DNA of 64,000 nt from Bacteroidota bacterium (GTDB lineage: Bacteria > Bacteroidota > Ignavibacteria > UBA10030 > BY39): the NCBI GenBank assembly GCA_030682385.1, contig JAUXOG010000067.1, positions 8,790 to 72,789 on the forward strand, written 5' to 3'. This document shows, in pieces, positions 473-42,735 of this stretch (positions are counted from its first letter, which is position 1; each line of letters begins with the position of its first letter). The notes under the pieces are model-generated. The model was not told where the DNA came from. It saw only the letters and a program-made list of their open reading frames with translations, and made no database searches. A program made the translations under genes and the position numbers.

Positions 473-671
473 ATTTTTATTTTAAAAATATAAGTATTCA
501 CCCCCCACCCCATAACCTGTTGATATTAAAGAAATTATGGGTGTTATTTTAAAAAATATACATTTAAATATAGTGTGTTTTATTGTGTAATCTTAGTTTT
601 GCAAGTCGGATGTAAACAAAATCCGACCTACGCTAAGAACAAATTCCTCCTATCAAGAAATCGCTTCACGA

Positions 672-1375: not shown

Positions 1376-1424
1376 TTACTAACCTTTTTGATCCGCCTGA
1401 GGCGGATTGACTTTGGATTTTTTT

Positions 1425-6233: not shown

Positions 6234-7346
6234 TTAATAATTTTTAAAGTCGGTATCTACCGGGACTGCAAATCGGATCGTTGTTCCTTTGTTGGCTTCC
6301 GATTCTGCTAAAATATATCCACCGTGCACCTCAACTATTAATTTGCAGAGAGCCAAACCCAAACCGGTAGTTTTTTCTTTATTCGGAGTTTCCGGTTTGT
6401 ACTTATCAAAAATATGTAGAAGCATATTTCCGGGAATACCAACACCGTTATCGGAAACCGAAACTTCTACAAACTGACGCAGCGCCCCATCCTGTTCTTT
6501 ATGAATTGCCGTAGTACTAATCGAAATTTTTCCCCCCGTTGACGAGTATTTAATTGCATTATCCAAAATGTTAATTAGAACCTTCTCAATTTTTTCAGAA
6601 TCGATTTCTATAGTCGGAACATTTTTATCTATCGATAGTTCGAAATTAATATTTTTTGCTTTTGCGTCGGCTTCCAATCGGCTGCAAACGGCAGGCACAA
6701 GTTCGTCGAGGTTTACGGGCAATTTATCGAGTTGTACATTGCCGCTTTCTAACTGAGCTAAATCAATCAAGTCGTTTATCGTTGCATTTATTTTCATCAA
6801 TGTATGGTCGATGTGGTTTAGTAATTCTCGTTGCTTTTCAGATACAATATTATCAAGCCCTTTGTTTAAAAGACTAACAGCCGATTTTACAGCAGCAAGT
6901 GGAATGCGCAGTTTGTGCATGACAAGTGTCGGAAAATCAATCTGAATTTCTTGCAGCCTTCTATCTTCTTCGCGCGACCGTATTAATGATTTCATTTTAT
7001 CAAGCAACAAATCCACCTGTATCGGTTTTTCGAGGAAATCGCATGCACCGTATTTTATGCTTTCAACAGCGCTCGGTATATCCGCAAAAGCCGTAACCAT
7101 AATGATGTCGGTGTTTGGCGTTATTCGACGCAGAGTTTTTAATGCTTCGAGTCCATCCATTTCCTCCATTCTTATATCGAGTAAAATTATAGTGTAATCT
7201 TTTAATGCAACCATACTCAATGCTTCGTCCCCACTTGATGCTTCATCGACAAGAAATCCTTCTCCTTGGAGTTGATCTTTTAACATTGAGCGAAAATGTT
7301 TCTCGTCGTCAACAATAAGTATCCGATTAAAACTCTCTTTTTCCAT
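6234..7346 (-). CDS. Hybrid response-regulator receiver / histidine kinase
   Basis: N-terminal REC (ILIVDDEKHFRSML...DIRMEEMDG), an H-box (MHKLRIPLAAV) and a C-terminal HATPase_c (DNGVGIP...GLGLALC). Adjacent to the NtrC-like regulator. Confidence 0.8.
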   Translation of the reverse strand: MEKESFNRILIVDDEKHFRSMLKDQLQGEGFLVDEASSGDEALSMVALKDYTIILLDIRMEEMDGLEALKTLRRITPNTDIIMVTAFADIPSAVESIKYGACDFLEKPIQVDLLLDKMKSLIRSREEDRRLQEIQIDFPTLVMHKLRIPLAAVKSAVSLLNKGLDNIVSEKQRELLNHIDHTLMKINATINDLIDLAQLESGNVQLDKLPVNLDELVPAVCSRLEADAKAKNINFELSIDKNVPTIEIDSEKIEKVLINILDNAIKYSSTGGKISISTTAIHKEQDGALRQFVEVSVSDNGVGIPGNMLLHIFDKYKPETPNKEKTTGLGLALCKLIVEVHGGYILAESEANKGTTIRFAVPVDTDFKNY

Positions 7347-14900: not shown

Positions 14901-15106
14901 CTGAACCTAATTTTGTATCCTTAAAAATCTTTGATGTATTAGGTCGTGAGATAGCTACTCTTGTAGCAGAGTATCAGGATGCTGGTTATAAAACGGTAGA
15001 ATTTTCCGGAGTGTCCACCAACGGCGGATTACCAAGCGGCGTATATTTTTACAAACTGCAAGCTGGTAGTTTTATATCTGTTAAGAAGATGCTGCTCGCA
15101 AAATAA
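11948..15106 (+). CDS. Secreted zinc metallopeptidase (HEXXH) with a T9SS C-terminal sorting domain
   Basis: Signal peptide, VVYHEYTHN zinc-binding motif. The C-terminal ~80 aa match the Por/T9SS CTD (FDNHPNPFNPITKISYTIP...GVYFYKLQAGSFISVKKMLL). Confidence 0.75.
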   Translation: MKLKSALFITLFLLLCLFENLQGQRIISFRDKHGNTLQAEVDEKTGSAKRIFGLNLNTRQYGYDRSSLTSETVKQLGKRLIDDYEEILKTSSKNVNLKKVDTDGQWWFVEYEQTFAGIPVYSSEAGFTIDPQGNIVTAGAVVFPNISIRTQATVPSFQAMSKVKEEFGSDSATVENEPELFIIPIEHEANYKYYLVWKIGLSSLHPLRDTVYFVSAENGSILKRLSNIRNDVIYGTITGNYYPQRSYDPPIRVAYPTTYIRMYDKLGQDVVSTNADQNGNYSITYSVAYATYYLDINLQNHWIQLRNASDKIIRNTFAFTRASSIRHDYEWPAGDATNVWYHATKIHNFYRGSPFSYTGMDYQMKATVGLGTDRNGAADGTNIFFGSQGGQLWARSSDVVYHEYTHNTIYRIYGGWIGSGGNTQASAMDEGISDYFACTFNNDPLMGEDVLIDRNLNNDTFTWDPDKGPHWNGQVIGGAVWDFREVVSRNVADNLAFKALQVVPRARDFPTYLYNIMVADNGTYNGAHRSQLRTAFAAHSINTTEPLLPPVISGFTQTPSVIYRGGSGTVTAHLSQGNGNISYTWSPTFFPQGASVVSFDENKANIYYGYSKTVSTDDSKIPATTLTCTAINEVGSSTLTTFVYFSSGGGGGCPFVYTWNGNEYIEDNNILPQSVYTPPEEGLVTDYYQLFTEPVETEGKYKLRVGEFEQEISTLDQFKLLIVDHIPEAMVSANDNGEISLYAKPASLTNANVDDGDVYKLVYERDDNYVETEPDQSMQLTFEDGQVGSDKVMLLQASSDLKVPFGALEKLNGKNINPQDIKARKNMSYVWVPVDVQNHKETNIDIGIAWTGTAKLDYIELSNKLNLDYTLHESELISAEHSQDGDVTSLLQNSDGNIVELKPQEWVDLVFTAPPLSEGMKRSFIFVSCGRYVTIPEDKKETQTLSQKGGINENVRTVKLPVSYELFDNHPNPFNPITKISYTIPEPNFVSLKIFDVLGREIATLVAEYQDAGYKTVEFSGVSTNGGLPSGVYFYKLQAGSFISVKKMLLAK

Positions 15107-15123
15107 ATTACAATACTACAAGT

Positions 15124-15178
15124 AGCCGGCTCCTTTAGAACATCAAACATTCACCGTTCTTGGAGCCGGTTCTTTTTT
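15124..15178 (+). terminator. Intrinsic terminator
   Basis: gccggctcc ... ggagccggt stem followed by tcttttttat. Confidence 0.7.
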
Positions 15179-15282
15179 ATATACCAAACCTTTGGCGAAT
15201 TACACCTATCTTGCTTTTTAAAACTAACTTTCCTAAATTTCACACGTCATTTTATAATTTTCCCATCAAAGGAGTTTGACTT

Positions 15283-15702
15283 ATGAATTTTTATCAATCA
15301 GGTTGGACTAAAGTTTTAACAACCTATCATCGCTTTGCGGGCAGTTGGGCTTGGATATTTCACCGCATCAGCGGCTTGGCTCTTACTGCTTATATCTTTA
15401 TGCACATCATTGCATTATCAAATTTACAGAAACATAAAATCGATGGCGGCAAAGCTTTCAACGAAGAAATGGCACTCTTCTCATCTCCGTTTTTCCTGGT
15501 AATAGAATGGCTGCTCTTCGCTTTCGTGCTGTATCATACTCTAAACGGAATTCGAATTGTGCTCGTTGATTTTGCCAATGGCGCCCGCTACCATAAGCAA
15601 CTTCACTATGCTGTTGTAACAATCGGTGTCATTGCATTCATAGCGATGGGTTATGTTATTTTCAGTCATCAAGTTAATAAAACTGTTGCAATGTTATTTT
15701 AA
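15283..15702 (+). CDS. sdhC: Succinate dehydrogenase cytochrome b subunit
   Basis: 139-aa polytopic membrane protein, first gene of a C-D-A-B operon. Confidence 0.75.
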   Translation: MNFYQSGWTKVLTTYHRFAGSWAWIFHRISGLALTAYIFMHIIALSNLQKHKIDGGKAFNEEMALFSSPFFLVIEWLLFAFVLYHTLNGIRIVLVDFANGARYHKQLHYAVVTIGVIAFIAMGYVIFSHQVNKTVAMLF

Positions 15703-15722
15703 AATTTATTTAGGAGCATTTT

Positions 15723-16076
15723 ATGTCGTATAAACATTTAGGTTCACGAAATTCAGGCGCACCCGGCTGGTTGTTTCAACGCATAACGGGAATTGTGCTG
15801 ATAGTGGCAATGGTCGGCCATTATATTCTAATGCACTACACTCCGACATCGGGACATTCATTTGCTTCAACTTTCGAGCGGATGCAAAACCCGCTCTGGA
15901 AAGTTTTTTATCTCTCGTTTGTTGTGGTTGGAATTTACCATGGCTTGAACGGAGTTTGGGGAGTTGTGCGCGATTTTAAAATGAAAAGATGGCTCAGTAT
16001 GACGATTCTCGGTGCGATGATTATTTTGGGCATCGCCTTTGCAGTTTTCGGATTTATGAATGTTCTGGTTTTTTAA
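15723..16076 (+). CDS. sdhD: Succinate dehydrogenase hydrophobic membrane anchor subunit
   Basis: 117-aa membrane protein between sdhC and sdhA. Confidence 0.7.
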   Translation: MSYKHLGSRNSGAPGWLFQRITGIVLIVAMVGHYILMHYTPTSGHSFASTFERMQNPLWKVFYLSFVVVGIYHGLNGVWGVVRDFKMKRWLSMTILGAMIILGIAFAVFGFMNVLVF

Positions 16077-16085
16077 AATAATGAA

Positions 16086-16101
16086 TCCGTTAGCTAACGG
16101 A
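16086..16101. promoter_or_regulatory. Perfect 16-bp palindrome TCCGTTAGCTAACGGA between sdhD and sdhA
   Basis: Direct reading. The same palindrome recurs at 24584-24599, with variants at 18722, 26837 and 42630. Candidate operator or RNA hairpin. Confidence 0.5.
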
Positions 16102-16137
16102 TGAACATTGAATTTAGAATAAAGAAGGATTTGTTAA

Positions 16138-17886
16138 ATGATTCACAAACACGATGTACTAATAGTAGGTGCCGGACTTGCCGGTTTACGTGCCGCGGTT
16201 GAATTAGCCGGCAAAGCCGATGTTGCAGTGCTTTCAAAAGTTTTTCCAACACGCTCGCACTCTGGTGCCGCTCAGGGCGGAATAGCCGCCGCTCTCGGTA
16301 ACGAAGAAGAAGACCACGTCGAGTGGCACATTTTCGATACTGTAAAAGGGAGCGATTATTTAGGCGATCAGGATGCGATTGAGATGATGGTATCGGAGGC
16401 GCCCGAAGTAATTATCGAACTCGAACACATGGGCGTGCCGTTCAGCAGAACAAAAGAAGGAAAAATTGCACAACGGCAATTCGGCGGACACACACGTCCG
16501 AAAGTTGGTGCCGACGGAAAAGAAACCCGAGTAGCAATTCAACGAGCTTGTTATGCTGCCGACAGAACCGGTCACGTCATTCTGCACACTTTGTATGAAC
16601 AATGCGTAAAGCATAATGTGCATTTTTATTCCGAGTATTATGTTGTTTCGCTTATTGTAAAAGATGGGGTCTGCCGCGGACTTGTTGCTTTCGATATTCA
16701 AACCGGCGAGCTGCATACTTTCCACGCAAAGGCAGTGATGTTCGGAACAGGCGGTTACGGAAGAGCCTGGAAAATTACATCGAATGCGTATGCGAATACC
16801 GGCGACGGAGTTGCGATTGCGTATCGTGCGGGGATTCCGCTAGAAGATATGGAGTTTGTTCAGTTCCATCCAACAGGACTTTGGAAGTTAGGAATTTTAG
16901 TAACCGAGGGTGCACGCGGCGAAGGCGGCTATCTTAAAAATAAAAACGGTGAACGCTTTATGAAAAACTATGCACCGACTGTAATGGAGCTTGCACCTCG
17001 CGATATGGTAACCCGCTCAATCACAACTGAAATTTTAGAAGGACGCGGGATTGACGGAAAAGATTACGTGCATCTCGACCTCACACATGTTGGTGAAGCT
17101 ACTTTAAAAGAACGCCTCCCCGAAATTATCGGCTTTGCTAAAACTTATGTTGGCGTCGACCCTGTAAAAGCGCCGATACCAATTCAACCGACAGCACACT
17201 ACTCGATGGGCGGAATTCCGACTTCTCTTTTCGGTGAAGTTTATTTAGATGAGAAGGGAACAATTCTTACCGGCTTTTATGCTGCCGGCGAATGTGCCTG
17301 CATCAGCGTTCACGGCGCCAATCGTTTAGGAACTAACTCGCTCTTAGATGGCGTAGTCCACGGTCGCAGAACAGGAAAACAAATTGCAAAATTTTTACAA
17401 ACTGCCGAGTTCAGTGAATTACCGGAAAATGCCGATACAGCCGACCGTGCAAGGATTGATGAATTGTTCGCTTCTACAAATTTCAAAGAATCGTATCATC
17501 ACATTAAAGATACGCTACGCGATAATATGATGGCAAAAGCAGGCGTGTACCGGAACGAAAAAGATTTGAAAGAAATGAAGCAAATAATTCATGAACTCCG
17601 TGAAAAATATAAAAATGTCGGTTTGCGGGATAAGAGTAAAAATTTCAACACCGAGTTAATGGAGGTTTTGGAGTTAGGTCATTTACTCGAATTTTCAGAA
17701 GTAGTTGTTGAAGGTGCGATTGCCCGTCAGGAATGCCGCGGCGCTCACTGGCGCACCGATTTCGAAAAGCGCGACGACACGAACTGGATGAAACACACAT
17801 TCGCATTCAGAACCGAGAAAGGCATCGAGTTAAAATACAAACCGGTTACAGTTACAAAATATCAACCGATGGAAAGAAAATATTAA
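16138..17886 (+). CDS. sdhA: Succinate dehydrogenase flavoprotein subunit
   Basis: [13 protein letters not shown] fold. [10 protein letters not shown] marks the covalent-FAD His region. 582 aa. Confidence 0.9.
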
Positions 17887-17926
17887 CCGGCAAATTACAA
17901 ATATCAAATTATCAATAGGCATAAAT

Positions 17927-18625
17927 ATGCAAGTAACATTCTCAATCCAAAGATACGATTCATCTAAAGACAAAAAGCCATATCGGCAGGAATTCAAATT
18001 AGACGTTGAGCCGACGGATAGAATCCTGGATTGCCTCGACCGCATCAAGTGGGATTTCGAAGGAAGTTTAACTTACCGCCGTTCCTGCTCTCACGGAATT
18101 TGCGGCTCGGACGCAATCAACATCAACGGTAAAAACATGCTCGCCTGTCAGGTTCTGATACAGGACATTAAGAAGAAACGTATTAAAATCGACCCTATTC
18201 CCGGAATGCCTATCATCAAAGATTTGGTTGTGGATACTACCGATTTCTTCGCAAAGTACGAAGTAGTAAAGCCGTATCTGATTGCAAAAAATCCTCCGCC
18301 AAAAGAACGCTTCCAATCAGTCGCAGACAGAGCGTTAATAGATGAAGCGGTTAACTGTATTTTGTGCGGCGCCTGCACAAGCTCCTGCCCTTCGATGTGG
18401 GGCAATCCAAATTATTTAGGTCCTGCCGCAATGCTCAAAGCTTACCGCTTCGCATTCGACAGCCGCGACGAAGCCCCCGCCGAACATTTAGAAGCAATCG
18501 ACACAAGCGACGGTGTTTGGCGTTGTCATACAATATTCAATTGTGTAGAAGCCTGCCCGAAAGAAATTAACCTCACCTGGCACATCTCGCAGTTGAAAAA
18601 GAAAATGGTGGAGAGAGAGTTGTAA
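17927..18625 (+). CDS. sdhB: Succinate dehydrogenase iron-sulfur subunit
   Basis: CSHGICGSDA (2Fe-2S) and CILCGACTSSCP / CHTIFNCVEACP (4Fe-4S and 3Fe-4S) cysteine clusters. Confidence 0.9.
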   Translation: MQVTFSIQRYDSSKDKKPYRQEFKLDVEPTDRILDCLDRIKWDFEGSLTYRRSCSHGICGSDAININGKNMLACQVLIQDIKKKRIKIDPIPGMPIIKDLVVDTTDFFAKYEVVKPYLIAKNPPPKERFQSVADRALIDEAVNCILCGACTSSCPSMWGNPNYLGPAAMLKAYRFAFDSRDEAPAEHLEAIDTSDGVWRCHTIFNCVEACPKEINLTWHISQLKKKMVEREL

Positions 18626-18687
18626 AAATAAGTAGTAAGAAGTAAATAGTATGTAGATGCCCTGATTCCGAAGTGTTCGGGAGCGGG

Positions 18688-18737
18688 GCTTTTTTGTTTA
18701 ACTCCTTCCAATTTTCTATTAATCCGTTAGCTAAAGG
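18688..18737. promoter_or_regulatory. Conserved 33-nt motif (GGCTTTTTTGTTTAACTCCTTCCAATTTTCTAT) followed by a TCCGTTAGCTAAAGGA near-palindrome
   Basis: 30/33 identical to 24607-24640 upstream of hemE. Contains TTTG and, ~20 nt later, TAtt, resembling the FCB-group -33/-7 promoter layout. Confidence 0.4.
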
Positions 18738-19023
18738 ATTTCTTTTTTGGCTCATCGAAAGGTTTGTTTACATTTCAAGATTCCTTTTTAGAACGTAGAA
18801 CGTTCTTTACTCATTTGACGCTCGAATTATACGATAAAACACATTCCATTCAACCGCACGATTTTACCCCCCCCCATAACAGCTATAACTCCTTATATTT
18901 CAACTGGTTATAAAAGGCAATTTTTTTGGCGAAAAAATAGGATTTTTAAAAAATAAAATATATATTACCAGCAAACAAATAAAAACAATTCGCTCGACTC
19001 TTTGAGCGGAAAGGACTGCGGTT

Positions 19024-20739
19024 ATGAAAAATGCATTTATTATTTTTTTTATTGCTTTCACTTTATTAATCAGTTTTTTTGATAGCGAGATAGTTTTAGC
19101 TCAAAATATTAAAAGGTTACAAAATTTTGTTGATGACCGAAAAAACAAAATAGACCCTTCATTTTTAATAGATGATTCTTCGCGAACAATTAATGTGGGG
19201 AAGTTACAAAACCAAAATGTATTACAACTGCTAACCGATACAACCGGCTGCCCGACTGAGTTGACAACGGAGATGAGACTTACTCCAGATATTGGTGGAT
19301 ATCCAACAATAGCACAACAGGGCGAAGATTACATACATCTAACATGGGATTTTGATGGTGATAAATTAATGTATGCGCGCTCGATCGATCAGGGTATTAC
19401 ATTCAATGTAAGAGACATAACAGATACAATTATGTTTCCTAAAGGTGTTGCATCGGCAAGAATATTAGCAAGCGAAAAATATGTCTATTTATTTTTCCTT
19501 TCGATGAGTGGAGGACAAGACATATCGCCTGTTTATATGATTCGTTCATCAGATAGAGGTGAAACATTTGATACCCCCCGTATTACAACTAATATGAATG
19601 CAGTTACAGCTACATTTCAGTGGCAGGCAATTTCAGGAGACACAATAGTTTTATTACACAATCGTTATTTACACTATTCCACAAGTGCCGGTAATACCTG
19701 GCGAACAAAAAGGAATCGCTTGAGTTTTTTGCTAAAGGAATCGCGTTATGGTTTAAATAAAATTATAATTAATAACGGCATTGTACACATCATATATGAA
19801 AAATATATATATAACAAATATCGGAGACGATATGTAAAAGAAGTTTTATACCGACGGACAGCAAATTTAGGCAGGAGTTGGAGCCGTCAGCGAGTGCTTT
19901 CAGCTATAGATGGAAATACATCGTGGAACCCATTAGGTTTAACAGCTTCAATAAACGGAGATATATATGCTAGCTGGCGTGAGCATAGGCTTGGTAGTTA
20001 CAACGGATTGAGTGGTAGTTTTGCATATCGCAAGTCGGAGGATAATGGATTGAGCTGGGGACCAGAAATTGCATTAACACAAACACCCGAGGCATATCCC
20101 GCTGTAATGCCAATACATGTTAACAGTTACACAGGTAATCCCGTAGCAGTTGTATGGACAAAAGACACAACAAACATTTTCTTTGGTCCTTTTATTTCAC
20201 AAGTAAAGGCACGGATATCTTTAAATAGAGGTAATACCTGGTGTCCGGAAGTACAAATCACACCGGAAGATAATTCAGGTGCCAATGCAGTTTGTGTTTT
20301 AAATTCGCGTATATTAATACTTTATAGTAAAAATATGTTACCAGGACTTGGTGAGTGGGCTATCCATATGAGATCTGCCCCTTTTAAAATACATTCATCA
20401 TCTCAGTTTCAAAATAACGGTGGGGGCGAACTTGGCAGTGAAGAACTTGGAAAAATTATACTTGAGCAGAACTATCCCAATCCATTTAATTCTAATACAA
20501 ATATTGTATTTTACGTACCATCATTTATTGAAAGCCCTGTTGTTACATTAAAGGTATATAATCTGCTGGGGCAGGAGGTATCAGCGATAATTGAAAACGA
20601 ACAAATCGAAAGCGGCGAACATACGAAAGAATTTAATGCTGCACACCTGTCATCTGGTGTGTATTATTATCAGTTGAATGTTAGAGATGACGAAGGACAA
20701 GTATATAGAGAAATGAAGAAATTATTGATAATTAAATAG
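19024..20739 (+). CDS. Secreted BNR/Asp-box repeat (sialidase-like beta-propeller) protein with a T9SS C-terminal sorting domain
   Basis: Signal peptide. SxDxGxTW-type repeats (SSDRGETF, STSAGNTW, SEDNGLSW, SLNRGNTW). C-terminal NYPNPFNSNTNIVFYVP...GVYYYQL CTD. Confidence 0.7.
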   Translation: MKNAFIIFFIAFTLLISFFDSEIVLAQNIKRLQNFVDDRKNKIDPSFLIDDSSRTINVGKLQNQNVLQLLTDTTGCPTELTTEMRLTPDIGGYPTIAQQGEDYIHLTWDFDGDKLMYARSIDQGITFNVRDITDTIMFPKGVASARILASEKYVYLFFLSMSGGQDISPVYMIRSSDRGETFDTPRITTNMNAVTATFQWQAISGDTIVLLHNRYLHYSTSAGNTWRTKRNRLSFLLKESRYGLNKIIINNGIVHIIYEKYIYNKYRRRYVKEVLYRRTANLGRSWSRQRVLSAIDGNTSWNPLGLTASINGDIYASWREHRLGSYNGLSGSFAYRKSEDNGLSWGPEIALTQTPEAYPAVMPIHVNSYTGNPVAVVWTKDTTNIFFGPFISQVKARISLNRGNTWCPEVQITPEDNSGANAVCVLNSRILILYSKNMLPGLGEWAIHMRSAPFKIHSSSQFQNNGGGELGSEELGKIILEQNYPNPFNSNTNIVFYVPSFIESPVVTLKVYNLLGQEVSAIIENEQIESGEHTKEFNAAHLSSGVYYYQLNVRDDEGQVYREMKKLLIIK

Positions 20740-20790
20740 CTAAACAAATGTTAAATAGTATTATTAACAAAACTAAATTACAAAATTAAA

Positions 20791-23700
20791 ATGAAAGGGA
20801 AAAAAATGAAAACTGTACATTTTTTATTGAGTCTAATTTTTTCAATTAGTACCTGCGTAGTTCAGGCGGACGAATGGAAGTCGTTGAATGGTCCACCTGC
20901 AGGAGCCGCGGTACGAGATTTTTCTGTTGTCAATTCCACAATCTATGCAGCCGATGCAGTTCGACTATCAAAATCAATAAATACAGGTGTTAATTGGTCG
21001 CAAACACTGGCTTTGGTCGAAATGCCGTTAGTTGTATCGGCAAATCCAGCCAATGCAAACCTGTTAATAGTTGGCAAGCTTGATACAATTAAATATTCAA
21101 GCAACGGTGGTGATTCGTGGAGAAACATAGAAACATTAATGAAGCCAAATCGGCTTACTCGCTCACCCGATGTTTCTACTTTTGATAAAGTTTATCTCGG
21201 CACAAATTTTAAACCTGATAATTCATCATTAAGGAATTCAACTGATAATGGGTGGGGATGGAGTGATATCGGTTATTTTCATTCTTCAGCTACTGCAACA
21301 AATATAACCGATATTGCAGTAAAAACGGGTACAAATAGTATAGAAATTTGGGTATGCGGGACGAAGAAAGGTATAAGCACAGTATATAATCCTAAACGGG
21401 GAGTTTGGCGAACGACAGACGGTGGAGTTAATTGGAATTATATCGGGTTGTATGATAAAGAAGTTACAGCCATAGCTGTGCACCAAAATATAGTTATGGC
21501 AGGCGATGCCGCAGGTAAGTTGTATCAGAAGGATGGTATTTCAGATTTTCTGCCAGTTCCCGGATTCAAGAGTACTGATGCAAAAAAGGTAAATAATATA
21601 CAGAGAATCAATGATAAATGGTATGTTGGAGCCAAAACAGGAGCATTCCGGCTTGATAATGCAGTATGGAAACATGTATTGAAAGGTCGCAATGTCTTTT
21701 CAATTAAATCGGATAATAATACAATATATGCTGGAACCGACCGAGGTCTGATGAAATCTACGGACTATGGTGAAAGTTGGAGTGAGGTAAATTATACAAG
21801 CACTCGTAGTACTGGTGTATATAGCGTTGTCTCTAAAGATAATTATGTATTAGCATTACACAAAGAAAGTAGTAAATATTTTATCATCAGCCGTTATGAA
21901 AACGGTGTATGGGAAAAGATAATCGACACTTTTTTAGAAGACAAATTTATAGGTAGAAATATCATATTTCACCCGTCAATTGATACTGTTGTTTTTGCTG
22001 TAGGTTCAATAGATACTGCTGGTGATCGAGCAGTTATATATAAATCGATCGATAGAGGATTAAATTGGTATAGAGTATTTACATCAACCGGTAAAGGTGG
22101 GCAGATACGGGTTGAGGGGTTATCTTTTTCTAATGGCTGTAATAATATTTTTGCTTATGGCCGTTTTGGTAAGTTCAGTGGAGTTGAAAGAAATGTAATT
22201 GCCAGTACTGATAACCTCGGAGAATCGTGGAATGAAAATTATAACCCTGTAGATGGAGGGAATAAATTAGTGAGCGCTATCATTTCCCATCCAACGACAA
22301 CATCTTTATTTGCAGCTCTGCCCTCTGGAAGCATCAAAGGTTTATATCAAACAACAAATTGTGGTTTTGCATGGCCAAGGCATCAAGCTTTTAGAGGTAA
22401 ACCAATTTCTAGTCTTGCTATGGATATGAATAATCCAAGTTATCTATACACAAGTGGAGGAAGGTTTGTTTATAGGATTGGAATAAACAATACAGATACA
22501 TGTAGAATAGGAAAATTTAGTGGAGTAGATAATATTATTTTAAAACCTAATGTGAATGATAACTTATTTGCTATTGTTAGATTCGCTGGAAAAGATAGTA
22601 TAGTCAGATATTTAGGAGGTAGTAATTTACTCCAGAGCTGGGAAGTTTTCGGCGATAGGTTGCCAAGGAAAAAACATATTAATCAAATCTCATTTTCAAT
22701 AACACATAGTGATACATTATATGCTGCAAGTGATTCAGGTGTTTACAAAATCTATGCGCCGACTAAGCCAATTTCAATTGCGTGTCCTGATGGATTTAAT
22801 AAAATTGCTTCTATCGGCTCTGATGAACAATTAATAATAAAAGAAACGTTCACAATAGAATCAGATCAAACAATGTTAATAGATGCAGGCGCAACACTTA
22901 TTTTTTCACCGGGTGCACAACTTCGTGTAAATGGTCATTTAATTGTTCAGGGTACACCTGAAAATAAAGTCCGTTTTATATCCGAGAATCCATCTCAGCG
23001 CTGGGGCGGAATTTATCTTGCAAAAGATTCACGTGCCGATATCGAGAACGTTGAAATCACCGGTGCGGTTGCCGGTATTATCGGCACAAAAGCTGAATTG
23101 AATATGAGTAACTCAGACATAAAGAATTGCTTAATCGGTGTAGGGCTTTATGGTAAAACAAGTGAACCATCACAGATAAATTTTACAAACATCGAACAGA
23201 ATGCCTGGGGCATAGCCACACTTGACGGCAGTGATGCGGTGATAAAAAATAGCCGTATTGCTGGCGGTCAGAAAGGTGTTTTAATCGAAGCAAGTTCTCC
23301 GGAGTTTTACGGTAATACCATTAGCGATAACAGCCAAGTCGGAGCTGTCATATATGCCAACGGTTATGCCCGATTCGGCAGCATCTCACCAAATCAACAA
23401 GGTTCAAATATCATTTCAAATAATGGAAGCGCGCAAATTCTTGCTTTCAACGGATATGCATTTCTCGGTTACACGGATGGCAATTTTGTTCTCGGCGGTA
23501 ATAATACAGTTATCACTCCCGACCCTTACATTCCTATCGCTGTAACTCTTAATAATTCACAAATGAATGCAATGCTTACAAACTGGGGTACAACCAACGT
23601 AAACCAAAATGATTTTATTACTGATGCAACATCACAAATTGCTTATACTACGCCATTATATGATCCTGAAGAAATTGATATGATGTTTTCAGATGCAATG

Positions 23701-24546
23701 CAATATCGCTCAACAGGTAATCATGGATATGCAATATACAATTATCAAAACATAATCAATTATGGTGATTCGCACGAGGCAGTCCGGGCATTTGTTGAGC
23801 TTCGGGAAACATATACGGAACTATTGAATGCCGAAACCGATCAGATGGCGCAGTGGCGTAGTTATTTGCAGACTCTACATCAACATCCAAATCCGTTAAT
23901 CGTCAGGTCTGCCGTTGTATGGTTAGCACACGAGTATGCAAATGCCGATATGCTTGAAGAGGCGCTTGCTAAATATGAGTCGGCACTCTCGCTTCCTCTT
24001 AGTAATGATACTCGAATTTCGGTATTGTTATCAAAGATGTTATTAGAAGGTTATGAGTCGGATTATATAGATGCAGCAGAAGAAACATTCCAACAGCTTA
24101 AAACACAATTTCCAAATGATGAACGGACACAACTTGCTCAACTGCATTATGAACTGCTTTCGAGCGAGCAGTCGGTTGAATTGTTTGCTAAAACATCCGG
24201 TTTTAAAGTGTTGATGCGCGAACTGCCCAAATTTCTAAAAGCTGAGCAAAAATTAAATAGCATACCTCAAGAATTTAGGATTGAACAAAATTATCCTAAT
24301 CCGTTTAATCCGAGCACGCTTATAAAATACCAGCTTCCGCAAGCTAACAAGGTCGAGATAAAGATTTACAATATCTTCGGACAGGAAGTGAAGAAGTTAG
24401 TAGATGAAGTGAAAGATGCAGGATATTATGAGATAGTTTGGAACAGCGACAACAACACGGGCAGCCATGTTGCAAGCGGTGTTTATCTTTACAGGCTAAT
24501 TGCTGGCTCGTACACATCTGTAAAGAAGATGATCCTGATGAGGTAA
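20791..24546 (+). CDS. Large secreted protein with BNR/Asp-box repeats, a right-handed beta-helix region, and a T9SS C-terminal sorting domain
   Basis: 1251 aa with a signal peptide and multiple SxDxGxSW repeats. NxxGxxI/V beta-helix-like repeats at aa 700-900. C-terminal NYPNPFNPSTLIKYQLP...GVYLYRL CTD. Confidence 0.7.
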   Translation: MKGKKMKTVHFLLSLIFSISTCVVQADEWKSLNGPPAGAAVRDFSVVNSTIYAADAVRLSKSINTGVNWSQTLALVEMPLVVSANPANANLLIVGKLDTIKYSSNGGDSWRNIETLMKPNRLTRSPDVSTFDKVYLGTNFKPDNSSLRNSTDNGWGWSDIGYFHSSATATNITDIAVKTGTNSIEIWVCGTKKGISTVYNPKRGVWRTTDGGVNWNYIGLYDKEVTAIAVHQNIVMAGDAAGKLYQKDGISDFLPVPGFKSTDAKKVNNIQRINDKWYVGAKTGAFRLDNAVWKHVLKGRNVFSIKSDNNTIYAGTDRGLMKSTDYGESWSEVNYTSTRSTGVYSVVSKDNYVLALHKESSKYFIISRYENGVWEKIIDTFLEDKFIGRNIIFHPSIDTVVFAVGSIDTAGDRAVIYKSIDRGLNWYRVFTSTGKGGQIRVEGLSFSNGCNNIFAYGRFGKFSGVERNVIASTDNLGESWNENYNPVDGGNKLVSAIISHPTTTSLFAALPSGSIKGLYQTTNCGFAWPRHQAFRGKPISSLAMDMNNPSYLYTSGGRFVYRIGINNTDTCRIGKFSGVDNIILKPNVNDNLFAIVRFAGKDSIVRYLGGSNLLQSWEVFGDRLPRKKHINQISFSITHSDTLYAASDSGVYKIYAPTKPISIACPDGFNKIASIGSDEQLIIKETFTIESDQTMLIDAGATLIFSPGAQLRVNGHLIVQGTPENKVRFISENPSQRWGGIYLAKDSRADIENVEITGAVAGIIGTKAELNMSNSDIKNCLIGVGLYGKTSEPSQINFTNIEQNAWGIATLDGSDAVIKNSRIAGGQKGVLIEASSPEFYGNTISDNSQVGAVIYANGYARFGSISPNQQGSNIISNNGSAQILAFNGYAFLGYTDGNFVLGGNNTVITPDPYIPIAVTLNNSQMNAMLTNWGTTNVNQNDFITDATSQIAYTTPLYDPEEIDMMFSDAMQYRSTGNHGYAIYNYQNIINYGDSHEAVRAFVELRETYTELLNAETDQMAQWRSYLQTLHQHPNPLIVRSAVVWLAHEYANADMLEEALAKYESALSLPLSNDTRISVLLSKMLLEGYESDYIDAAEETFQQLKTQFPNDERTQLAQLHYELLSSEQSVELFAKTSGFKVLMRELPKFLKAEQKLNSIPQEFRIEQNYPNPFNPSTLIKYQLPQANKVEIKIYNIFGQEVKKLVDEVKDAGYYEIVWNSDNNTGSHVASGVYLYRLIAGSYTSVKKMILMR

Positions 24547-24572
24547 AATTTCATTCTTAGATTTTTTAAAAG

Positions 24573-24616
24573 AGCCGATTCAGTCCGTTAGCTAACGGAT
24601 GGGTCGGCTTTTTTGT
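24573..24616 (+). terminator. Intrinsic terminator whose loop contains the TCCGTTAGCTAACGGA palindrome
   Basis: agccga ... tcggct stem plus tttttt. The palindrome at 24584-24599 sits inside the loop. Confidence 0.6.
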
Positions 24617-24643
24617 TAAATTCCCTCCAATTTTCTATATTTA
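24607..24643 (+). promoter_or_regulatory. Conserved 33-nt motif. Candidate hemE promoter (TTTG, 20-nt spacer, TATATTTA)
   Basis: Near-identical copy of 18688-18720. The TAnnTTTa-like element ends 17 nt upstream of the hemE ATG. Confidence 0.4.
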
Positions 24644-24660
24644 ACAAAAACTATTTAATT

Positions 24661-25710
24661 ATGAAATTACAAAACGATTTATTCTTAAAAGCATGTAAAC
24701 GCCAGCCGATCGAACGAACGCCGATCTGGATAATGCGACAGGCGGGGCGATATTTACCTGAATACAGAGCAATCCGTGCAAAGACGGATTTCCTCACGCT
24801 TTGCAAAACTCCTGAACTCGCAGCCGAAGTTACAATTCAACCTGTGGATATCATCGGTGTGGATGCTGCGATAATTTTTTCCGATATACTCGTTATTCCC
24901 GAAGCTATGGGAATGGAGCTAATTGTAGAAGAAGGCAAAGGCGGACCGCAATTCCCTTCACCTGTTCGCAGCACATCCGAAATTAATAAACTCGCGATTC
25001 CCGACCCATACGATAAATTAAAATATGTAATGGATGCACTGAGTTTAACAAAACAAAATTTGGAAGGGCGTGTTCCGCTCATCGGTTTTTCAGGTTCACC
25101 CTGGACGCTGGCAACCTACATGGTTGAAGGAAGAGGAAAGCAGGAATTTAAAATTATTACCGAACTGATAAATGAACGACCAAAAGATGCTCACAAACTT
25201 TTGGATAAACTCGCCCGCTCAGCCGCTGATTATTTGAGCGCTCAAATTGAATCGGGTGCGAACGCAGTTCAGATATTCGACACGTGGGGCGGGATTCTTC
25301 CACAAGAACAGTTCGAAGAATTTTCTCTGCGTTACATAGAGCAAATTATTGCAAGCATAAAACGCAAGGATGAGCCAGTGATTGTTTTCTGCAAAGACTG
25401 CGGGCATGCCCTTGAAGCAATTGCAAACACAGGATGCGATGTGGTTGGATTAGATTGGACAGTTGATATCGGTGAGGCACGAAAATTAATCGGCAATAAA
25501 GTGGCACTTCAGGGAAACATGAATCCTCACAAGCTTTATGAGGATGAGGAAAAAATACGCGAAGAAGCAAAGTCGATACTTGAGAAATTCAGTAAAGGCA
25601 GCGGACACGTTTTTAATTTAGGTCACGGAATTCTACCCGATGTTCCTGTTGCACATGCAAAAGCATTGGTAGATGCCGTGAAAGAAGAGAGTGTTAAATA
25701 CCATAAGTAG
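24661..25710 (+). CDS. hemE: Uroporphyrinogen decarboxylase
   Basis: PIWIMRQAGRYLPEY N-terminal signature. Start placed at MKLQNDLF (24661), not the track start. Confidence 0.9.
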   Translation: MKLQNDLFLKACKRQPIERTPIWIMRQAGRYLPEYRAIRAKTDFLTLCKTPELAAEVTIQPVDIIGVDAAIIFSDILVIPEAMGMELIVEEGKGGPQFPSPVRSTSEINKLAIPDPYDKLKYVMDALSLTKQNLEGRVPLIGFSGSPWTLATYMVEGRGKQEFKIITELINERPKDAHKLLDKLARSAADYLSAQIESGANAVQIFDTWGGILPQEQFEEFSLRYIEQIIASIKRKDEPVIVFCKDCGHALEAIANTGCDVVGLDWTVDIGEARKLIGNKVALQGNMNPHKLYEDEEKIREEAKSILEKFSKGSGHVFNLGHGILPDVPVAHAKALVDAVKEESVKYHK

Positions 25711-25711
25711 A

Positions 25712-26689: not shown

Positions 26690-27003
26690 ATTGGTTCATT
26701 GAATCAATGCCCGCCTGCCTTAACGGATTCAATTTAGCGGGCAGGGATAAATTAACAAATGAAAGAATCTTTTCTGAATATCGAATAATGAATAATGAAG
26801 TGTGCCTTAGTGTCCGTCAACTGACGGATTTGTGTCTAGGTGACAAAAAGCTGAGCCACTAATTCCACGAATATGCACACGAATTAGTGTATATTAGTGT
26901 AACCTGCCCGACGGCAGGCGGGTTCGTGGCGAAAAATTAACCCACATGGTGTTAAAAATCTTCTCTGATAATTTAATAAATCTCTAATGACAAATTTGGA
27001 TCA

Positions 27004-28401: not shown

Positions 28402-28481
28402 GCATAAAATTTCAAAAAAAAAATCAAGAGGCAAAAGGATTAATGGTCAGGGGTCTGTCTAAGTTTCTTATTACTCAACCT

Positions 28482-31187: not shown

Positions 31188-31669
31188 ATGTCGTTGTGCC
31201 TTAGTATTTATTCAAATGAAACTCACTTACTTCTCTAATCTTATTTGAAATTCTAACTTCATCAATAATACCAACAATTCCATAAAAAAAAGTTCCATTA
31301 TTATAAGAACCTATCGTAGGTGGGTAACCAGAGCCAGTTGAGACAAAACTTCCACTAGCAAGATCAACTTCCCGTTGGAGAACACCGTCAATAAAAAGTC
31401 GCTCTTTACGTGTTACAAAGTCGACCTGTGCTACCACATGATACCAGACACGTGAATGTAGTGTCGTTGAATGGATTATGGGCCACCCCCCCGTTGTATG
31501 TGCACCAAAGAAGATAGCCGAGTCGGGAGATGTAGCAAGCTGTACTTCGCCATCATTTCCGTTATAGTAGATATCCTTGCCCTGGTGTCCAATTTGTAAC
31601 TTTGACCCACGCTTCAATTGTCTGCTGTTGCGGTACAGACCCAAAAAGCGAAGTGCCGAGCGTAACTGG

Positions 31670-42468: not shown

Positions 42469-42735
42469 CGTAATTGCAGGCTAACCAGTCACTCAAACTG
42501 ACATTACAACCGCGCGCGCCTGAGTTGTGAGTGTTGAATTATTAAATGACAACACACGATATAACAGCACATTTTAAATTTAAACTTTTAATCGACGCGC
42601 TGGAACATTGCAACGCAGGTTAGTTCCAGTCCGTTAGGCAACTAAAATCTGGTGTAGATATGTTTAATATAAAGAACGTATCTGTTAGGAACGTAAAACG
42701 TTCTAAGCTAACGGACGTTCTAAAGGAAAAGAAAA

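What the first reader, a model, noticed from the sequence alone, without database searches (positions are those of the whole stretch)
16086..16101. Palindrome family TCCGTYA-NN-TRACGGA in intergenic regions of respiration and heme genes
A perfect 16-mer TCCGTTAGCTAACGGA occurs between sdhD and sdhA (16086) and inside the terminator loop upstream of hemE (24584). TCCGTTAGCTAAAGGA occurs after sdhB (18722), and TCCGTCAACTGACGGA upstream of hemY (26837). Partial versions occur at 42630 and 42706. Five or more sites in 64 kb is far above chance for a 16-mer. The same half-site spacing with variable centre suggests a dimeric DNA-binding protein operator, possibly a heme/iron or redox regulator given the neighbouring genes, or a conserved RNA hairpin.
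Basis: seen in the sequence. Interest (0 to 1): 0.55.

Follow-up and report, generated by a model that had tools for sequence, protein, structure and literature searches.

The report
Dispersed mini-palindrome repeat, not an operator
The repeated 16-base palindrome near the succinate dehydrogenase and heme genes is real, but it is a tiny hairpin-forming repeat scattered through non-coding DNA of Ignavibacteria and related phyla, and there is no sign that it is a regulatory switch for respiration or heme genes.

Summary
TCCGTTAGCTAACGGA is perfect at 16086 and 24584, has one mismatch at 18723, and has a symmetric variant at 26813 (not 26837). The two "partials" are the halves of one copy split by 70 nt. 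Chance gives about 0.01 to 0.2 sites.

The operator reading fails its own test. Five close relatives (89-95% HemE identity) keep sdhCDAB and hemE-hemH-hemY, but none has the palindrome at the orthologous spacers.

- 62 are Ignavibacteriota. Others are Bacteroidota, WOR-3, Marinimicrobia and Caldithrix, with several copies per genome.
- About 93% of sites lie outside long ORFs.
- The 150 neighbouring genes hit 186 Pfam families, none more than 3 times.
- Conservation ends at an 18-mer, RTCCGTTAGCTAACGGAY.
- Copies are about 10 times enriched at the tips of longer, variable hairpins. They also replace loops of another repeat and of tRNA-like genes.

It is a short REP-like dispersed palindrome. 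The closest precedent is the 18-nt aAACCGTTgaAACGGTTt repeat of Caldithrix abyssi. It has no GTAG/CGTC tag, no nearby RAYT and no target duplication. How it spreads is unknown. Its local effect is most likely as a transcript hairpin; one copy caps an intrinsic terminator.

The parts
16085..16102 (.). Copy 1: perfect 18-bp palindrome ATCCGTTAGCTAACGGAT in the sdhD-sdhA spacer, inside the sdhCDAB operon.
   Evidence: RNA fold of 16076-16112 is -8.9 kcal/mol, z = -3.7. No T-run follows. Absent from the otherwise nearly identical spacer of L123 and from L124.
18722..18739 (.). Copy 2: decayed copy ATCCGTTAGCTAAAGGAT with one mismatch that breaks the stem. It lies just after the sdhB terminator and a promoter-like segment, upstream of a T9SS cargo gene.
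   Evidence: The fold is only -3.5 kcal/mol, z = -0.85. L124 has ...tatatttaatccgccaaaaac... at the equivalent place and L123/L125 have no copy. L001, the same strain, is identical.
24567..24615 (+). Intrinsic-terminator-like hairpin after the 1251-aa T9SS cargo gene. The outer stem is AAAAGAGCCGAUUCAG / UGGGUCGGCUUUUUU, followed by a T-run.
   Evidence: strand folding: -27.6 kcal/mol, z = -6.0, 0 of 200 shuffles fold as well. Sequence.
24583..24600 (+). Copy 3: GTCCGTTAGCTAACGGAT (perfect 16-mer with a G..T flank). It forms the tip of the terminator hairpin 24567-24615.
   Evidence: In L123/L124/L125 the terminators that precede the same hemE promoter segment have unrelated stems and loops.
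26812..26829 (+). Copy 4: sub-family variant GTCCGTCAACTGACGGAT (T>C and A>G compensating changes, centre AACT) in a 314-nt hemH-hemY spacer.
   Evidence: Fold -10 kcal/mol. The same variant occurs 5 more times in other genomes, and its reverse complement never appears on the + strand of those loci. The spacer is 41-81 nt in L120/L123/L124. In L125 it is 226 nt and lacks this hairpin.
42629..42716 (+). Copy 5: split copy. G-TCCGTTAG (42630-42637) and CTAACGGA-C (42708-42715) are separated by a unique 70-nt insert at the palindrome centre, upstream of a glyoxalase-family gene.
   Evidence: Inward-facing halves. The insert is unique among all held sequence. The halves pair and close a three-hairpin multiloop, -32.9 kcal/mol, z = -5.4.

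Best explanation
The sites are copies of a very short (16-18 bp) dispersed extragenic palindrome family, RTCCGTTAGCTAACGGAY, with symmetric sub-variants such as TCCGTCARCTGACGGA. It is a REP-like repeat found in Ignavibacteriota and, according to depositors' labels, in other FCB-group phyla.

Shown:
- Copies are gained and lost on a short evolutionary time scale rather than kept at orthologous positions.
- They sit almost only in non-coding DNA, next to unrelated genes.
- They lie preferentially at the tips of pre-existing hairpins: terminators, other repeats, tRNA-like arms. There they replace the original loop.

Inferred:
- Copies spread at the DNA level by an unknown hairpin-directed process. 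It leaves no target-site duplication and often deletes a few target bases. A trans-acting enzyme that handles single-stranded hairpin DNA is the favoured guess but is not demonstrated.
- Once present, a copy acts only as a moderately stable stem-loop (about -5 to -10 kcal/mol) in the transcript.
- In this window that means an extra hairpin inside the sdhCDAB mRNA between sdhD and sdhA. It could act as a 3'-exonuclease barrier or processing point, as REPs do in E. coli operons.
- It also means the cap of the terminator after the T9SS gene upstream of hemE, a decaying copy after sdhB, and one of several stacked hairpins in an expanded hemH-hemY spacer.
- The proximity to respiration and heme genes is local clustering of a repeat, not a regulon.
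For: Not chance: 3-4 sites against 0.01-0.19 expected.

Presence/absence:
- L123, L124 and L125 (HemE 89-95% identical) have sdhCDAB directly followed by hemE-hemH-hemY. L120-L122 and L126 have hemD-hemE-hemH-hemY.
- None carries the palindrome in any orthologous spacer.
- In the sdhD-sdhA spacer the flanks are almost identical to L123. Only the segment taataaatatcag is replaced by gaatccgttagctaacggatga.

Family elsewhere:
62 are Ignavibacteriota, 23 Bacteroidota, 7 WOR-3, 5 Marinimicrobia and 4 Caldithrix.
- One MAG (MNYQ01) has at least 14 copies and one 2.59-Mb contig has at least 5 dispersed copies.
- Only 8 of 122 sites lie deep inside ORFs of 200 aa or more.
- Conservation stops at -1 (A 68, G 29 of 119) and +1 (T 60, C 34).
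- Neighbour functions are diverse.

Hairpin-tip preference:
- 15% of sites have an outer stem of 6 bp or more, against 1.7% of intergenic controls (odds ratio 10.6, p = 8.5e-12).
- In MAG JAUWAR01 the repeat CATTGCGA-GGAG-x-CGAC-GAAGCAATC has x = TGAAA in two copies and x = the 16-mer in two others.
- L064 becomes a recognisable tRNA-Pro(CGG) only after removing the 16-mer from its D-loop and a second insert from its T-loop.
- L041 has tRNA-fMet-like copies with segments replaced by the 16-mer.
- The window has a split copy.

Variants and copy identity:
- Variants keep arm complementarity: TCCGTCAGCTGACGGA x6, CCCGTTAGCTAACGGG, TTCGTTAGCCAACGAA.
- Non-seed copies in the held loci number 4 exact, 8 with one mismatch and 9 with two. 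This is far more concentrated on the consensus than an operator set would be.

Orientation:
- The G..T-flank form is co-oriented with neighbouring genes 31:13 (p = 0.01) but not with GC skew (24:20).
- Centre-asymmetric variants lie 10 of 11 in one orientation relative to genes.

Published precedent: the 18-nt intergenic palindrome aAACCGTTgaAACGGTTt of Caldithrix abyssi. It has 38 exact copies, no conservation outside 18 nt, is judged not to be a TFBS, and is strand-specific (PMC5317091). Its core also occurs 7 times in my loci.
Against: - No mobilising enzyme was found. No HUH/Y1-motif ORF exists in about 830 kb of fetched loci, and no transposase family recurs next to sites.
- There is no conserved tag or target motif and no target-site duplication. 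The 'mobile' step is therefore inferred from presence/absence and loop replacement only.
- No strictly empty/filled allele pair at near-100% identity was obtained. The metagenome search with the sdhD-sdhA flanks found nothing.
- Exact identity of a 16-mer across phyla is unusual for REP-type repeats, which are normally specific to a species or genus. It could instead point to a conserved host factor that selects this sequence.
- Gene calls in the foreign loci are crude ORF maps, and the taxon labels are the depositors'.
- The RNA-level role is inferred. The element alone is not followed by T-runs more often than controls (11% against 16%).
Confidence: 0.68

Rival explanations
1. Operator of a homodimeric transcription factor controlling heme and respiratory genes.
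For: A perfect dyad-symmetric 16-18-mer, four copies within 11 kb around the sdh and hem genes. Copy 2 lies just downstream of a promoter-like segment.
Against: - Absent from the orthologous spacers of five close relatives.
- Copy 1 is inside an operon, copy 3 is inside a terminator stem-loop, and copy 5 is split.
- In other genomes the neighbours are functionally unrelated.
- 10 sites lie between convergent genes.
- Distances to gene starts range from 0 to more than 1000 nt.
- No regulator gene recurs nearby; MarR appears in 3 of 150 neighbours only.
- Copies also occur inside tRNA-like genes and other repeats.
Confidence: 0.04
2. Binding site of a conserved, non-gene-specific DNA-binding protein of FCB bacteria (nucleoid-associated or chromosome-organising, in the way parS, matS or Noc sites are). 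Site positions would turn over freely.
For: - An identical 16-mer across several phyla and strict sequence conservation rather than stem covariation alone.
- A few to a few tens of copies per genome, dispersed along a 2.59-Mb contig.
- The shared CCGTT..AACGG core with the Caldithrix abyssi palindrome.
Against: - Known sites of that type lie largely within genes and are positionally conserved (established knowledge). These sites are about 93% outside long ORFs and are not conserved in position.
- Enrichment at tips of pre-existing hairpins and loop replacement in tRNA-like genes and repeats is not expected for a duplex-binding site.
- G.T-type asymmetry correlates with gene strand, which points to a single-stranded form.
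Confidence: 0.1
3. A selected cis-acting RNA hairpin: a recognition site for an RNA-binding protein or RNase, or a stability or termination module. It would be retained because it benefits expression, not because it is a selfish or neutral repeat.
For: - Orientation bias relative to transcription (31:13, and 10 of 11 for centre-asymmetric variants).
- Compensatory arm changes.
- Location between cistrons and at gene 3' ends, and one copy builds a strong terminator.
- REPs in E. coli are reported to stabilise upstream mRNA (as cited in PMC5317091).
Against: - No positional conservation even among close relatives.
- One window copy is decayed and one is split.
- There is no T-run association.
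- Copies occur in pseudo-tRNA contexts where no benefit is evident.
- No Rfam family matches.
- This reading overlaps with the best explanation on what a copy does. It differs on why copies exist.
Confidence: 0.15
4. Chance similarity or an assembly or adapter artefact.
For: Short palindromes can arise from library or assembly artefacts.
Against: - Far above shuffled expectation.
- The same sequence appears in an independent assembly of the same strain (L001).
- It is found internally in contigs from many studies and assemblers, with a strong taxonomic concentration and extragenic bias.
- By contrast, 10 of the 13 hits in viral contigs lie inside long ORFs, which is what unrelated matches look like.
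Confidence: 0.01

Closest known systems
18-nt intergenic palindrome of Caldithrix abyssi (aAACCGTTgaAACGGTTt; Kublanov et al. 2017, PMC5317091)
   Same: - An 18-nt window with no conservation outside it.
- Tens of near-exact copies and an intergenic preference.
- Judged not to be a TFBS because copies lie between convergent genes.
- Hints of strand specificity.
- A host in the FCB group.
- A shared CCGTT...AACGG core.
   Different: - Different sequence and loop: a 4-nt AGCT centre against a 2-nt GA centre.
- That repeat was described in one species and assumed to be species- or genus-specific. This 16-mer is identical in MAGs labelled as several phyla.
- Hairpin-tip replacement and absence from orthologous sites were not reported there.
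REP / REPIN elements mobilised by RAYT (TnpA_REP) transposases (PMC3116915, PMC6006769)
   Same: - Short extragenic palindromes in many copies.
- Located inside operons and at 3' ends.
- Cluster and insert into or next to each other.
- Compensatory stem changes.
- No target duplication.
- Thought to act on single-stranded hairpin DNA.
   Different: - Shorter: 16-18 bp against 20-40 bp.
- A perfect rather than imperfect palindrome.
- No 5' GTAG head.
- Mostly singlets rather than inverted doublets.
- No RAYT-like ORF in any fetched locus.
- Not species-specific.
CGTC-tagged REPs (Di Nocera et al. 2013, PMC3733652)
   Same: - Stem of 8-9 bp with a loop of 4-5 nt.
- Found in Chlorobi and Bacteroidetes among other phyla.
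- No dedicated transposase known.
- Some REPs are reported to be inserted within palindromic targets.
   Different: No CGTC (or TGTC/CCTC) tag and no CCA tail. Positions beyond +/-1 are unconserved.
Intrinsic (Rho-independent) terminators
   Same: Copy 3 forms the upper part of a GC-rich hairpin followed by a T-run (-27.6 kcal/mol).
   Different: The element on its own is not followed by T-runs more often than control positions. Copy 1 lies inside an operon with no T-run.
Small dispersed repeats (SDR) and HIP1 of cyanobacteria; paired inverted DNA uptake sequences of Neisseria (from my own knowledge; SDRs are named only in passing in PMC3116915)
   Same: Very short dispersed repeats that can nest within each other or within hairpins. 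Neisseria DUS pairs form terminator stems.
   Different: - Not tested here.
- SDRs are 21-27 nt and HIP1 is an 8-mer abundant in coding DNA.
- DUS are single-orientation motifs at about one per kb, including in genes. Here solo half-sites are only mildly enriched.

Membership tests
Transcription-factor operator / regulon of heme-respiratory genes | Sites conserved in orthologous regulatory regions of related species | tested here: not met
   L120-L126 (HemE 89-95% identical) have no copy in the sdhD-sdhA, sdhB-hemE, hemD-hemE or hemH-hemY spacers.
Transcription-factor operator / regulon of heme-respiratory genes | Functionally coherent set of adjacent genes | tested here: not met
   150 flanking ORFs hit 186 Pfam families, none in more than 3 ORFs, with no heme or SDH enrichment. 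All-against-all clustering gives only T9SS-tail proteins at roughly the background rate.
Transcription-factor operator / regulon of heme-respiratory genes | Placement in 5' regions at a constrained distance from promoters or starts; rare between convergent genes | tested here: not met
   56 tandem, 10 convergent, 10 divergent. Distances to the next start range from 0 to more than 1000 nt (crude ORF maps).
Transcription-factor operator / regulon of heme-respiratory genes | Degenerate motif, with many more near-consensus than exact sites | tested here: not met
   Non-seed copies: 4 exact, 8 one-mismatch, 9 two-mismatch. Most multi-mismatch variants are symmetric sub-families.
REP / REPIN-RAYT | Short palindromic, extragenic, multi-copy sequence | tested here: met
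   18-bp palindrome. 114 of 122 sites are not deep inside long ORFs. One MAG has at least 14 copies. It is shorter than the usual 20-40 bp.
REP / REPIN-RAYT | Conserved unpaired GTAG (or GTGG) head next to the stem | tested here: not met
   No conserved position beyond -1 (R) and +1 (Y) in 119 sites.
REP / REPIN-RAYT | A RAYT (Y1 HUH transposase) gene flanked by copies in the same genome | tested here: inconclusive
   No ORF with the HUH...Y motif in the window or in about 830 kb of loci, and no transposase family among the neighbours. Whole genomes could not be scanned.
REP / REPIN-RAYT | Replicative unit is an inverted doublet (REPIN) | tested here: not met
   Nearly all sites are single; only 3 loci hold 2-3 copies.
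CGTC-tagged REP superfamily | Terminal CGTC/TGTC/CCTC tag and a short CCA-like tail | tested here: not met
   Flank composition shows neither.
Caldithrix-type 18-nt intergenic palindrome | About 18-nt conserved window, nothing conserved outside, intergenic, not enriched between divergent genes | tested here: met
   compared with the description in PMC5317091.
Caldithrix-type 18-nt intergenic palindrome | Strand specificity despite near-perfect symmetry | tested here: inconclusive
   The G..T flank form lies with the gene strand 31:13 (p = 0.01). Centre variants are 10 of 11 in one orientation. There is no relation to GC skew (24:20). The sample is small, partly non-independent, and the replication origin is unknown.
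Intrinsic terminator | GC-rich stem-loop directly followed by a U-run | tested here: not met
   Met only by the composite hairpin 24567-24615. For the element in general, T-runs follow 11% of sites against 16% of controls.
MITE (cut-and-paste DDE type) | Terminal inverted repeats flanked by a target-site duplication; a related IS in the genome | tested here: not met
   Direct repeats of 3 nt or more flank 4.3% of sites against 3.6% of controls. The window's IS (31676-33168, DDE_Tnp_1_4) has unrelated inverted repeats.
Known RNA families (Rfam 15) | Match to a curated covariance model | tested here: not met
   No hit at gathering score in the window. Only one chance-level hit at E <= 1 in 15000-28500.

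The most novel reading that the evidence does not exclude
The 16-18-nt palindrome may be one of the smallest self-propagating DNA elements. In this reading it is a 'hairpin-tip' element, identical in sequence across several FCB-group phyla. It would spread by replacing the loops of pre-existing hairpins (terminators, other repeats, even tRNA arms) through a still unidentified hairpin-processing enzyme acting in trans. That enzyme would be either conserved in, or horizontally shared among, these phyla. The Caldithrix aAACCGTTgaAACGGTTt repeat would belong to the same superfamily, defined by a CCGTT/AACGG core.
Probability: 0.3. Interest if true: 0.7.

Novelty: new member of a known kind. Interest (0 to 1): 0.42.

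Why it matters
For annotating this genome, the sites should not be read as a heme or respiratory regulon signal. They are repeat copies whose main local consequence is extra RNA structure, including one terminator cap and one intercistronic hairpin in the sdh operon.

More generally, three points suggest that short palindromic repeats in the FCB group form a wider, possibly mobile family than the single-species report implied:
- The identical 16-mer occurs in extragenic DNA of MAGs labelled as several phyla.
- It prefers hairpin tips.
- It can replace loops in other repeats and in tRNA-like genes.

If a dedicated enzyme exists, this family would give a tractable entry to how tag-less REP-like repeats spread.

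Tried and rejected
- Rfam at gathering score on the whole window, and at E <= 1 on 15000-28500: nothing relevant.
- tRNA scan of the window: none.
- Full-text search for the sequence in papers: no paper holds it.
- Metagenome scan with the conserved flanks of the sdhD-sdhA site, to find empty or filled alleles: 0 matches.
- Exact-protein look-up of the window's SdhB: only one 2.1-kb contig of the same strain.
- RAYT/IS200-type transposase, tested by an HUH...Y motif scan of all six-frame ORFs in the window and loci: none.
- Recurrent neighbour gene families: only T9SS sorting-domain proteins (21 loci, about the background rate for these genomes), a few histidine kinases and sigma-54 regulators, and MarR in 3 neighbours. 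No candidate cognate regulator or transposase emerged.
- Target-site duplications: not above control.
- T-run association (the terminator idea for the element itself): not above control.
- The window's IS element as a source: its inverted repeats are unrelated.
- Phage association:
  - 13 hits in viral contigs, but 10 lie inside long ORFs and several are duplicates of one sequence.
  - My three control palindromes gave 0, 1 and 0 hits. They contain CTAG or ACGT runs, so they are poor controls.
  - I draw no conclusion beyond 'no evidence for a phage link'.
- GC-skew test for a replication-strand bias: not significant.
- DNA-uptake-sequence idea: rejected, because solo half-sites are only mildly enriched and the motif is almost absent from coding DNA.
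Full report
**1. The observation**

The window is 39.6% G+C. Pfam confirms these genes:

| Gene | Coordinates |
|---|---|
| sdhC | 15283-15702 |
| sdhD | 15723-16076 |
| sdhA | 16138-17886 |
| sdhB | 17927-18625 |
| two type-IX-secretion cargo genes | 19024-24546 |
| hemE | 24661-25710 |
| hemH | 25691-26689 |
| protoporphyrinogen-oxidase-like hemY | 27004-28401 |
| hemB, hemL, citrate synthase, fumarase | further on in the window |

The palindrome sites are as follows.
- TCCGTTAGCTAACGGA is perfect at 16086 and 24584. TCCGTCAACTGACGGA is at 26813, not 26837.
- TCCGTTAGCTAAAGGA is at 18723.
- Shuffles of the window give 0.01 matches to the degenerate pattern and 0.19 matches to the 16-mer with up to 3 mismatches. 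The family is real.
- With its flanks the unit is an 18-mer, ATCCG...CGGAT or GTCCG...CGGAT.
- The two 'partial' sites are TCCGTTAG at 42630 and CTAACGGA at 42708. They are the two halves of the palindrome in inward orientation, 70 nt apart.
  - The insert is unique among all held sequence.
  - The halves pair to close a three-hairpin multiloop, -32.9 kcal/mol, z = -5.4.

**2. Anatomy in the window**

- Copy 1 lies 9 nt after the sdhD stop and 36 nt before the sdhA start. No T-run follows it, and the local fold is -8.9 kcal/mol.
- Copy 3 is the upper part of a long hairpin, 24567-24615, followed by a T-run. The fold is -27.6 kcal/mol, z = -6.0.
- Copy 2 carries a stem-breaking mismatch and barely folds (-3.5 kcal/mol, z = -0.85).
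- Copy 4 folds at -10 kcal/mol. It sits in a 314-nt hemH-hemY spacer full of other small hairpins.
- The bare 16-18-mer is a 6-7-bp stem with a 4-nt loop, -5.4 to -6.8 kcal/mol as RNA.

**3. Orthologous regions**

HemE homologues at 95, 93, 92, 90 and 89% identity led to loci L125, L124, L120-L122, L126 and L123.
- In L123, L124 and L125, sdhCDAB (L125 begins within sdhA) is followed directly by hemE-hemH-hemY. The two cargo genes of the window are therefore an insertion between sdhB and hemE.
- That insertion is accompanied by a duplicated terminator-tail/promoter-like segment, 18687-18719 and 24606-24638, 91% identical.
- None of these relatives has any member of the palindrome family in the sdhD-sdhA, sdhB-hemE, hemD-hemE or hemH-hemY spacers.
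- The sdhD-sdhA spacer of L123 is almost base-for-base identical to the window. The exception is that taataaatatcag stands where the window has gaatccgttagctaacggatga.
- The hemH-hemY spacer is 41-81 nt in L120, L123 and L124. In L125 it is 226 nt, shares one of the window's other hairpin elements, and lacks the palindrome.

**4. The same sequence elsewhere**

By the depositors' titles they break down as:

| Group | Loci |
|---|---|
| Ignavibacteriota (Ignavibacteria, Ignavibacteriaceae, Melioribacter) | 62 |
| Bacteroidota | 23 |
| WOR-3 | 7 |
| Marinimicrobia | 5 |
| Caldithrix | 4 |
| Other FCB (Stahlbacteria, Chlorobiota) | 2 |
| Unclassified | 5 |
| Outside the FCB group | 10 |

- One MAG (MNYQ01) has at least 14 copies on different contigs. 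One 2.59-Mb contig has at least 5 copies spread along it.
- Only 8 of 122 sites lie deep inside ORFs of 200 aa or more. With a crude ORF map, 15 of 124 sites fall inside any ORF of 90 aa or more.
- For contrast, 10 of 13 hits in viral contigs lie inside long ORFs. That is what unrelated matches look like.
- Alignment of the flanks of 119 sites shows conservation only at -1 (A 68, G 29) and +1 (T 60, C 34) and nothing further out. The unit is 18 bp and is not part of a larger repeat in general.
- Between genes, the arrangement is 56 tandem, 10 convergent and 10 divergent, with very variable distances to gene ends.
- 150 flanking ORFs hit 186 Pfam families, none in more than three ORFs.
- All-against-all clustering finds only type-IX sorting-domain proteins recurrently, at roughly the rate expected for these genomes.

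There is no heme or respiration theme and no recurrent regulator.

**5. Evidence that copies are inserted, preferentially at hairpin tips**

- 15% of sites have a further complementary outer stem of 6 bp or more within 4 nt, against 1.7% for intergenic control positions (odds ratio 10.6, p = 8.5e-12). The outer stems differ from site to site.
- Within one MAG (JAUWAR01), the repeat CATTGCGA-GGAG-x-CGAC-GAAGCAATC has x = TGAAA in two copies and x = the 16-mer in two others. Related genomes carry x = other TCCGTC...GACGGA palindromes.
- In Caldithrix the 16-mer sits at the tip of a hairpin with covarying outer stem inside a roughly 100-nt repeat.
- L064 holds a sequence that ARAGORN recognises as tRNA-Pro(CGG) only after the 16-mer is removed from the D-loop and a second roughly 16-20-nt insert from the T-loop.
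- L041 holds, next to a real initiator-type tRNA-Met, truncated copies in which segments are replaced by the 16-mer and by similar palindromes, TTCCGATAATTATCGGAA and TTCGTTAGCCAACGAA.
- In these cases, and at the sdhD-sdhA site, a few target bases are replaced rather than simply interrupted.
- There is no target-site duplication: direct repeats of 3 nt or more flank 4.3% of sites against 3.6% of controls.

**6. Variants and strandedness**

- Other family members found in the same loci keep the two arms complementary: TCCGTCAGCTGACGGA six times, TCCGTCAACTGACGGA five times (the window's copy 4 type), CCCGTTAGCTAACGGG, and TTCGTTAGCCAACGAA.
- Non-seed copies are concentrated on the consensus, with 4 exact, 8 one-mismatch and 9 two-mismatch, against about 0, 0 and 0.3 in shuffles.
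- Asymmetric forms give a weak orientation signal.
  - The G..T-flank form, which would extend the stem by a G.U pair, lies on the strand of the neighbouring genes 31:13 (p = 0.01). It shows no relation to GC skew, 24:20.
  - The centre variants AACT and AGCC lie on the sense strand in 10 of 11 cases.
- The sample is small and partly non-independent. I treat this only as a hint that one strand, RNA or single-stranded DNA, is the relevant form.

**7. What it is not**

- No Rfam family matches.
- The element alone is not followed by T-runs more often than controls, 11% against 16%.
- No ORF with the HUH...Y motif occurs in the window or in about 830 kb of loci.
- The window's only IS (31676-33168, a DDE transposase that splits a surface-protein gene) has unrelated inverted repeats.

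**8. Comparison with the literature**

- No paper in the searched library contains the sequence.
- The Caldithrix abyssi genome paper describes an 18-nt repeat aAACCGTTgaAACGGTTt (PMC5317091). It has:
  - 38 exact cores;
  - no conservation outside 18 nt;
  - an intergenic preference;
  - sites between convergent genes, which the authors take as evidence that it is not a TFBS;
  - strand specificity given by the central dinucleotide;
  - a stated resemblance to REPs, though shorter and in fewer copies.
- The present element has the same size and behaviour and shares the CCGTT...AACGG core. The Caldithrix-type core also occurs 7 times in my loci.
- REP/REPIN elements are defined by a GTAG head, by doublets, and by a RAYT gene flanked by copies (PMC3116915; PMC6006769).
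- CGTC-tagged REPs have 8-9-bp stems and 4-5-nt loops, occur in Chlorobi and Bacteroidetes, and lack a known transposase. Some REPs are reported inside palindromic targets (PMC3733652).
- The present element lacks both tags. I therefore file it as working like a REP and as a new member of the short, tag-less palindrome kind first noted in Caldithrix. It is not a member of the GTAG or CGTC superfamilies.

**9. Mechanism, with what is shown and what is inferred**

Shown:
- The family is non-random and extragenic.
- It is not conserved in position.
- It is associated with unrelated genes.
- It is enriched at hairpin tips.
- It can replace loops in other repeats and in tRNA-like genes.

Inferred:
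- Copies spread at the DNA level by a hairpin-directed process that leaves no duplication. A trans-acting enzyme for single-stranded hairpins is my favoured guess, but I found no candidate.
- In the window, the copies act only through RNA structure: an intercistronic stem-loop in the sdh transcript, a terminator cap before the hemE promoter region, and inert or decaying copies elsewhere.

The clustering of four copies within 11 kb resembles the weak clustering noted for the Caldithrix repeat. I regard it as local spread, not regulation.

**10. Verdict**

- The hairpin alternative is right in form.
- The element is a new member of a known kind of short dispersed palindrome.
- The points of wider interest are its identical sequence across phyla, as labelled by depositors, and its hairpin-tip replacement behaviour. 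Both need whole-genome and experimental follow-up.

Noticed in passing
window 19024-24546, with 18687-18719 and 24606-24638: Two T9SS-sorting-domain cargo genes are inserted between sdhB and hemE relative to relatives L123/L124/L125, where sdhB is followed directly by hemE. The terminator-tail/promoter-like segment GGCTTTTTTGTT(T)AA(C/A)T(C)C..CCAATTTTCTAT is present on both sides of the insertion (91% identical).
   Followed up: partly
window 18790-18806 and 42673-42721: A second small palindromic motif. AGAACGTagaACGTTCT lies about 50 nt downstream of copy 2. Four GAACGT/ACGTTC units lie inside and next to the split copy, upstream of a glyoxalase-family gene. It could be a separate repeat or a genuine operator.
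   Followed up: no
window 26690-27003: The hemH-hemY spacer is 314 nt, against 41-81 nt in relatives. It is built from stacked hairpins. These include a GC-rich hairpin, cctgcccgacggcagg, inserted into an element (gccactaattccacgaat...cgaattagtg...) that L125 has without the insert.
   Followed up: partly
window 47839-48161 and 62202-62539: A non-coding repeat of about 330 bp, 94-99% identical in three blocks. One copy is downstream of an Ig-like-domain protein gene and the other downstream of the pyruvate kinase gene (both on the minus strand). It contains perfect hairpins such as GAGACGTTCCatGGAACGTCTC just after the first copy.
   Followed up: no
window 31676-33168: An IS element (DDE_Tnp_1_4 transposase 31822-33150, with 22-nt imperfect inverted repeats). 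It appears to split a minus-strand surface-protein gene into a BACON/fn3 part (33113-34831) and a Laminin_G_3 part (31201-31644).
   Followed up: partly
window 656-772: A tandem array of an 8-nt unit (CTCCACTA and variants), about 14 copies, overlapping the start region of the formiminotransferase-cyclodeaminase C-terminal-domain gene (749-1375, minus strand).
   Followed up: no
window 1391-1407: An intergenic hairpin, ATCCGCCtgaGGCGGAT, with the same ATCCG...CGGAT ends as the family but a different interior. L125 has a similar atccgcttacggcggat after sdhB. This may be a more distant relative of the family.
   Followed up: no
L064 85-175 (Ignavibacterium sp. MAG) and L061 2790-2835: tRNA-like genes carry the 16-mer in the D-loop. 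L064 is recognised as tRNA-Pro(CGG) only after removing this insert and a second one in the T-loop. Whether these are pseudogenes or expressed is unknown.
   Followed up: partly
L041 4380-5140 (MAG labelled Chitinophaga) and L048 about 7050-7240: Next to a real initiator-type tRNA-Met there is a duplicated block holding a small ORF plus truncated tRNA-Met-like copies. In those copies, segments are replaced by the 16-mer, by TTCCGATAATTATCGGAA and by TTCGTTAGCCAACGAA. The same arrangement appears in a second Bacteroidota MAG.
   Followed up: partly
L019, L032 (Marinimicrobia), L085, L104 (Melioribacter lineage): A longer version of about 34 nt, (a)agagattccaTCCGTTAGCTAACGGAtggaatctct, has the same outer stem in MAGs labelled as two different phyla. 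L056 and L102 share another outer stem (ttttccaa/ttggaaaa).
   Followed up: no
L005, L017, L031, L043, L098: Arms of the palindrome are locally duplicated in 7-12-nt steps, for example atccgttatccgttTCCGTTAGCTAACGGAtaacggaaacggat. This gives longer nested palindromes and suggests slippage or growth of the hairpin.
   Followed up: no
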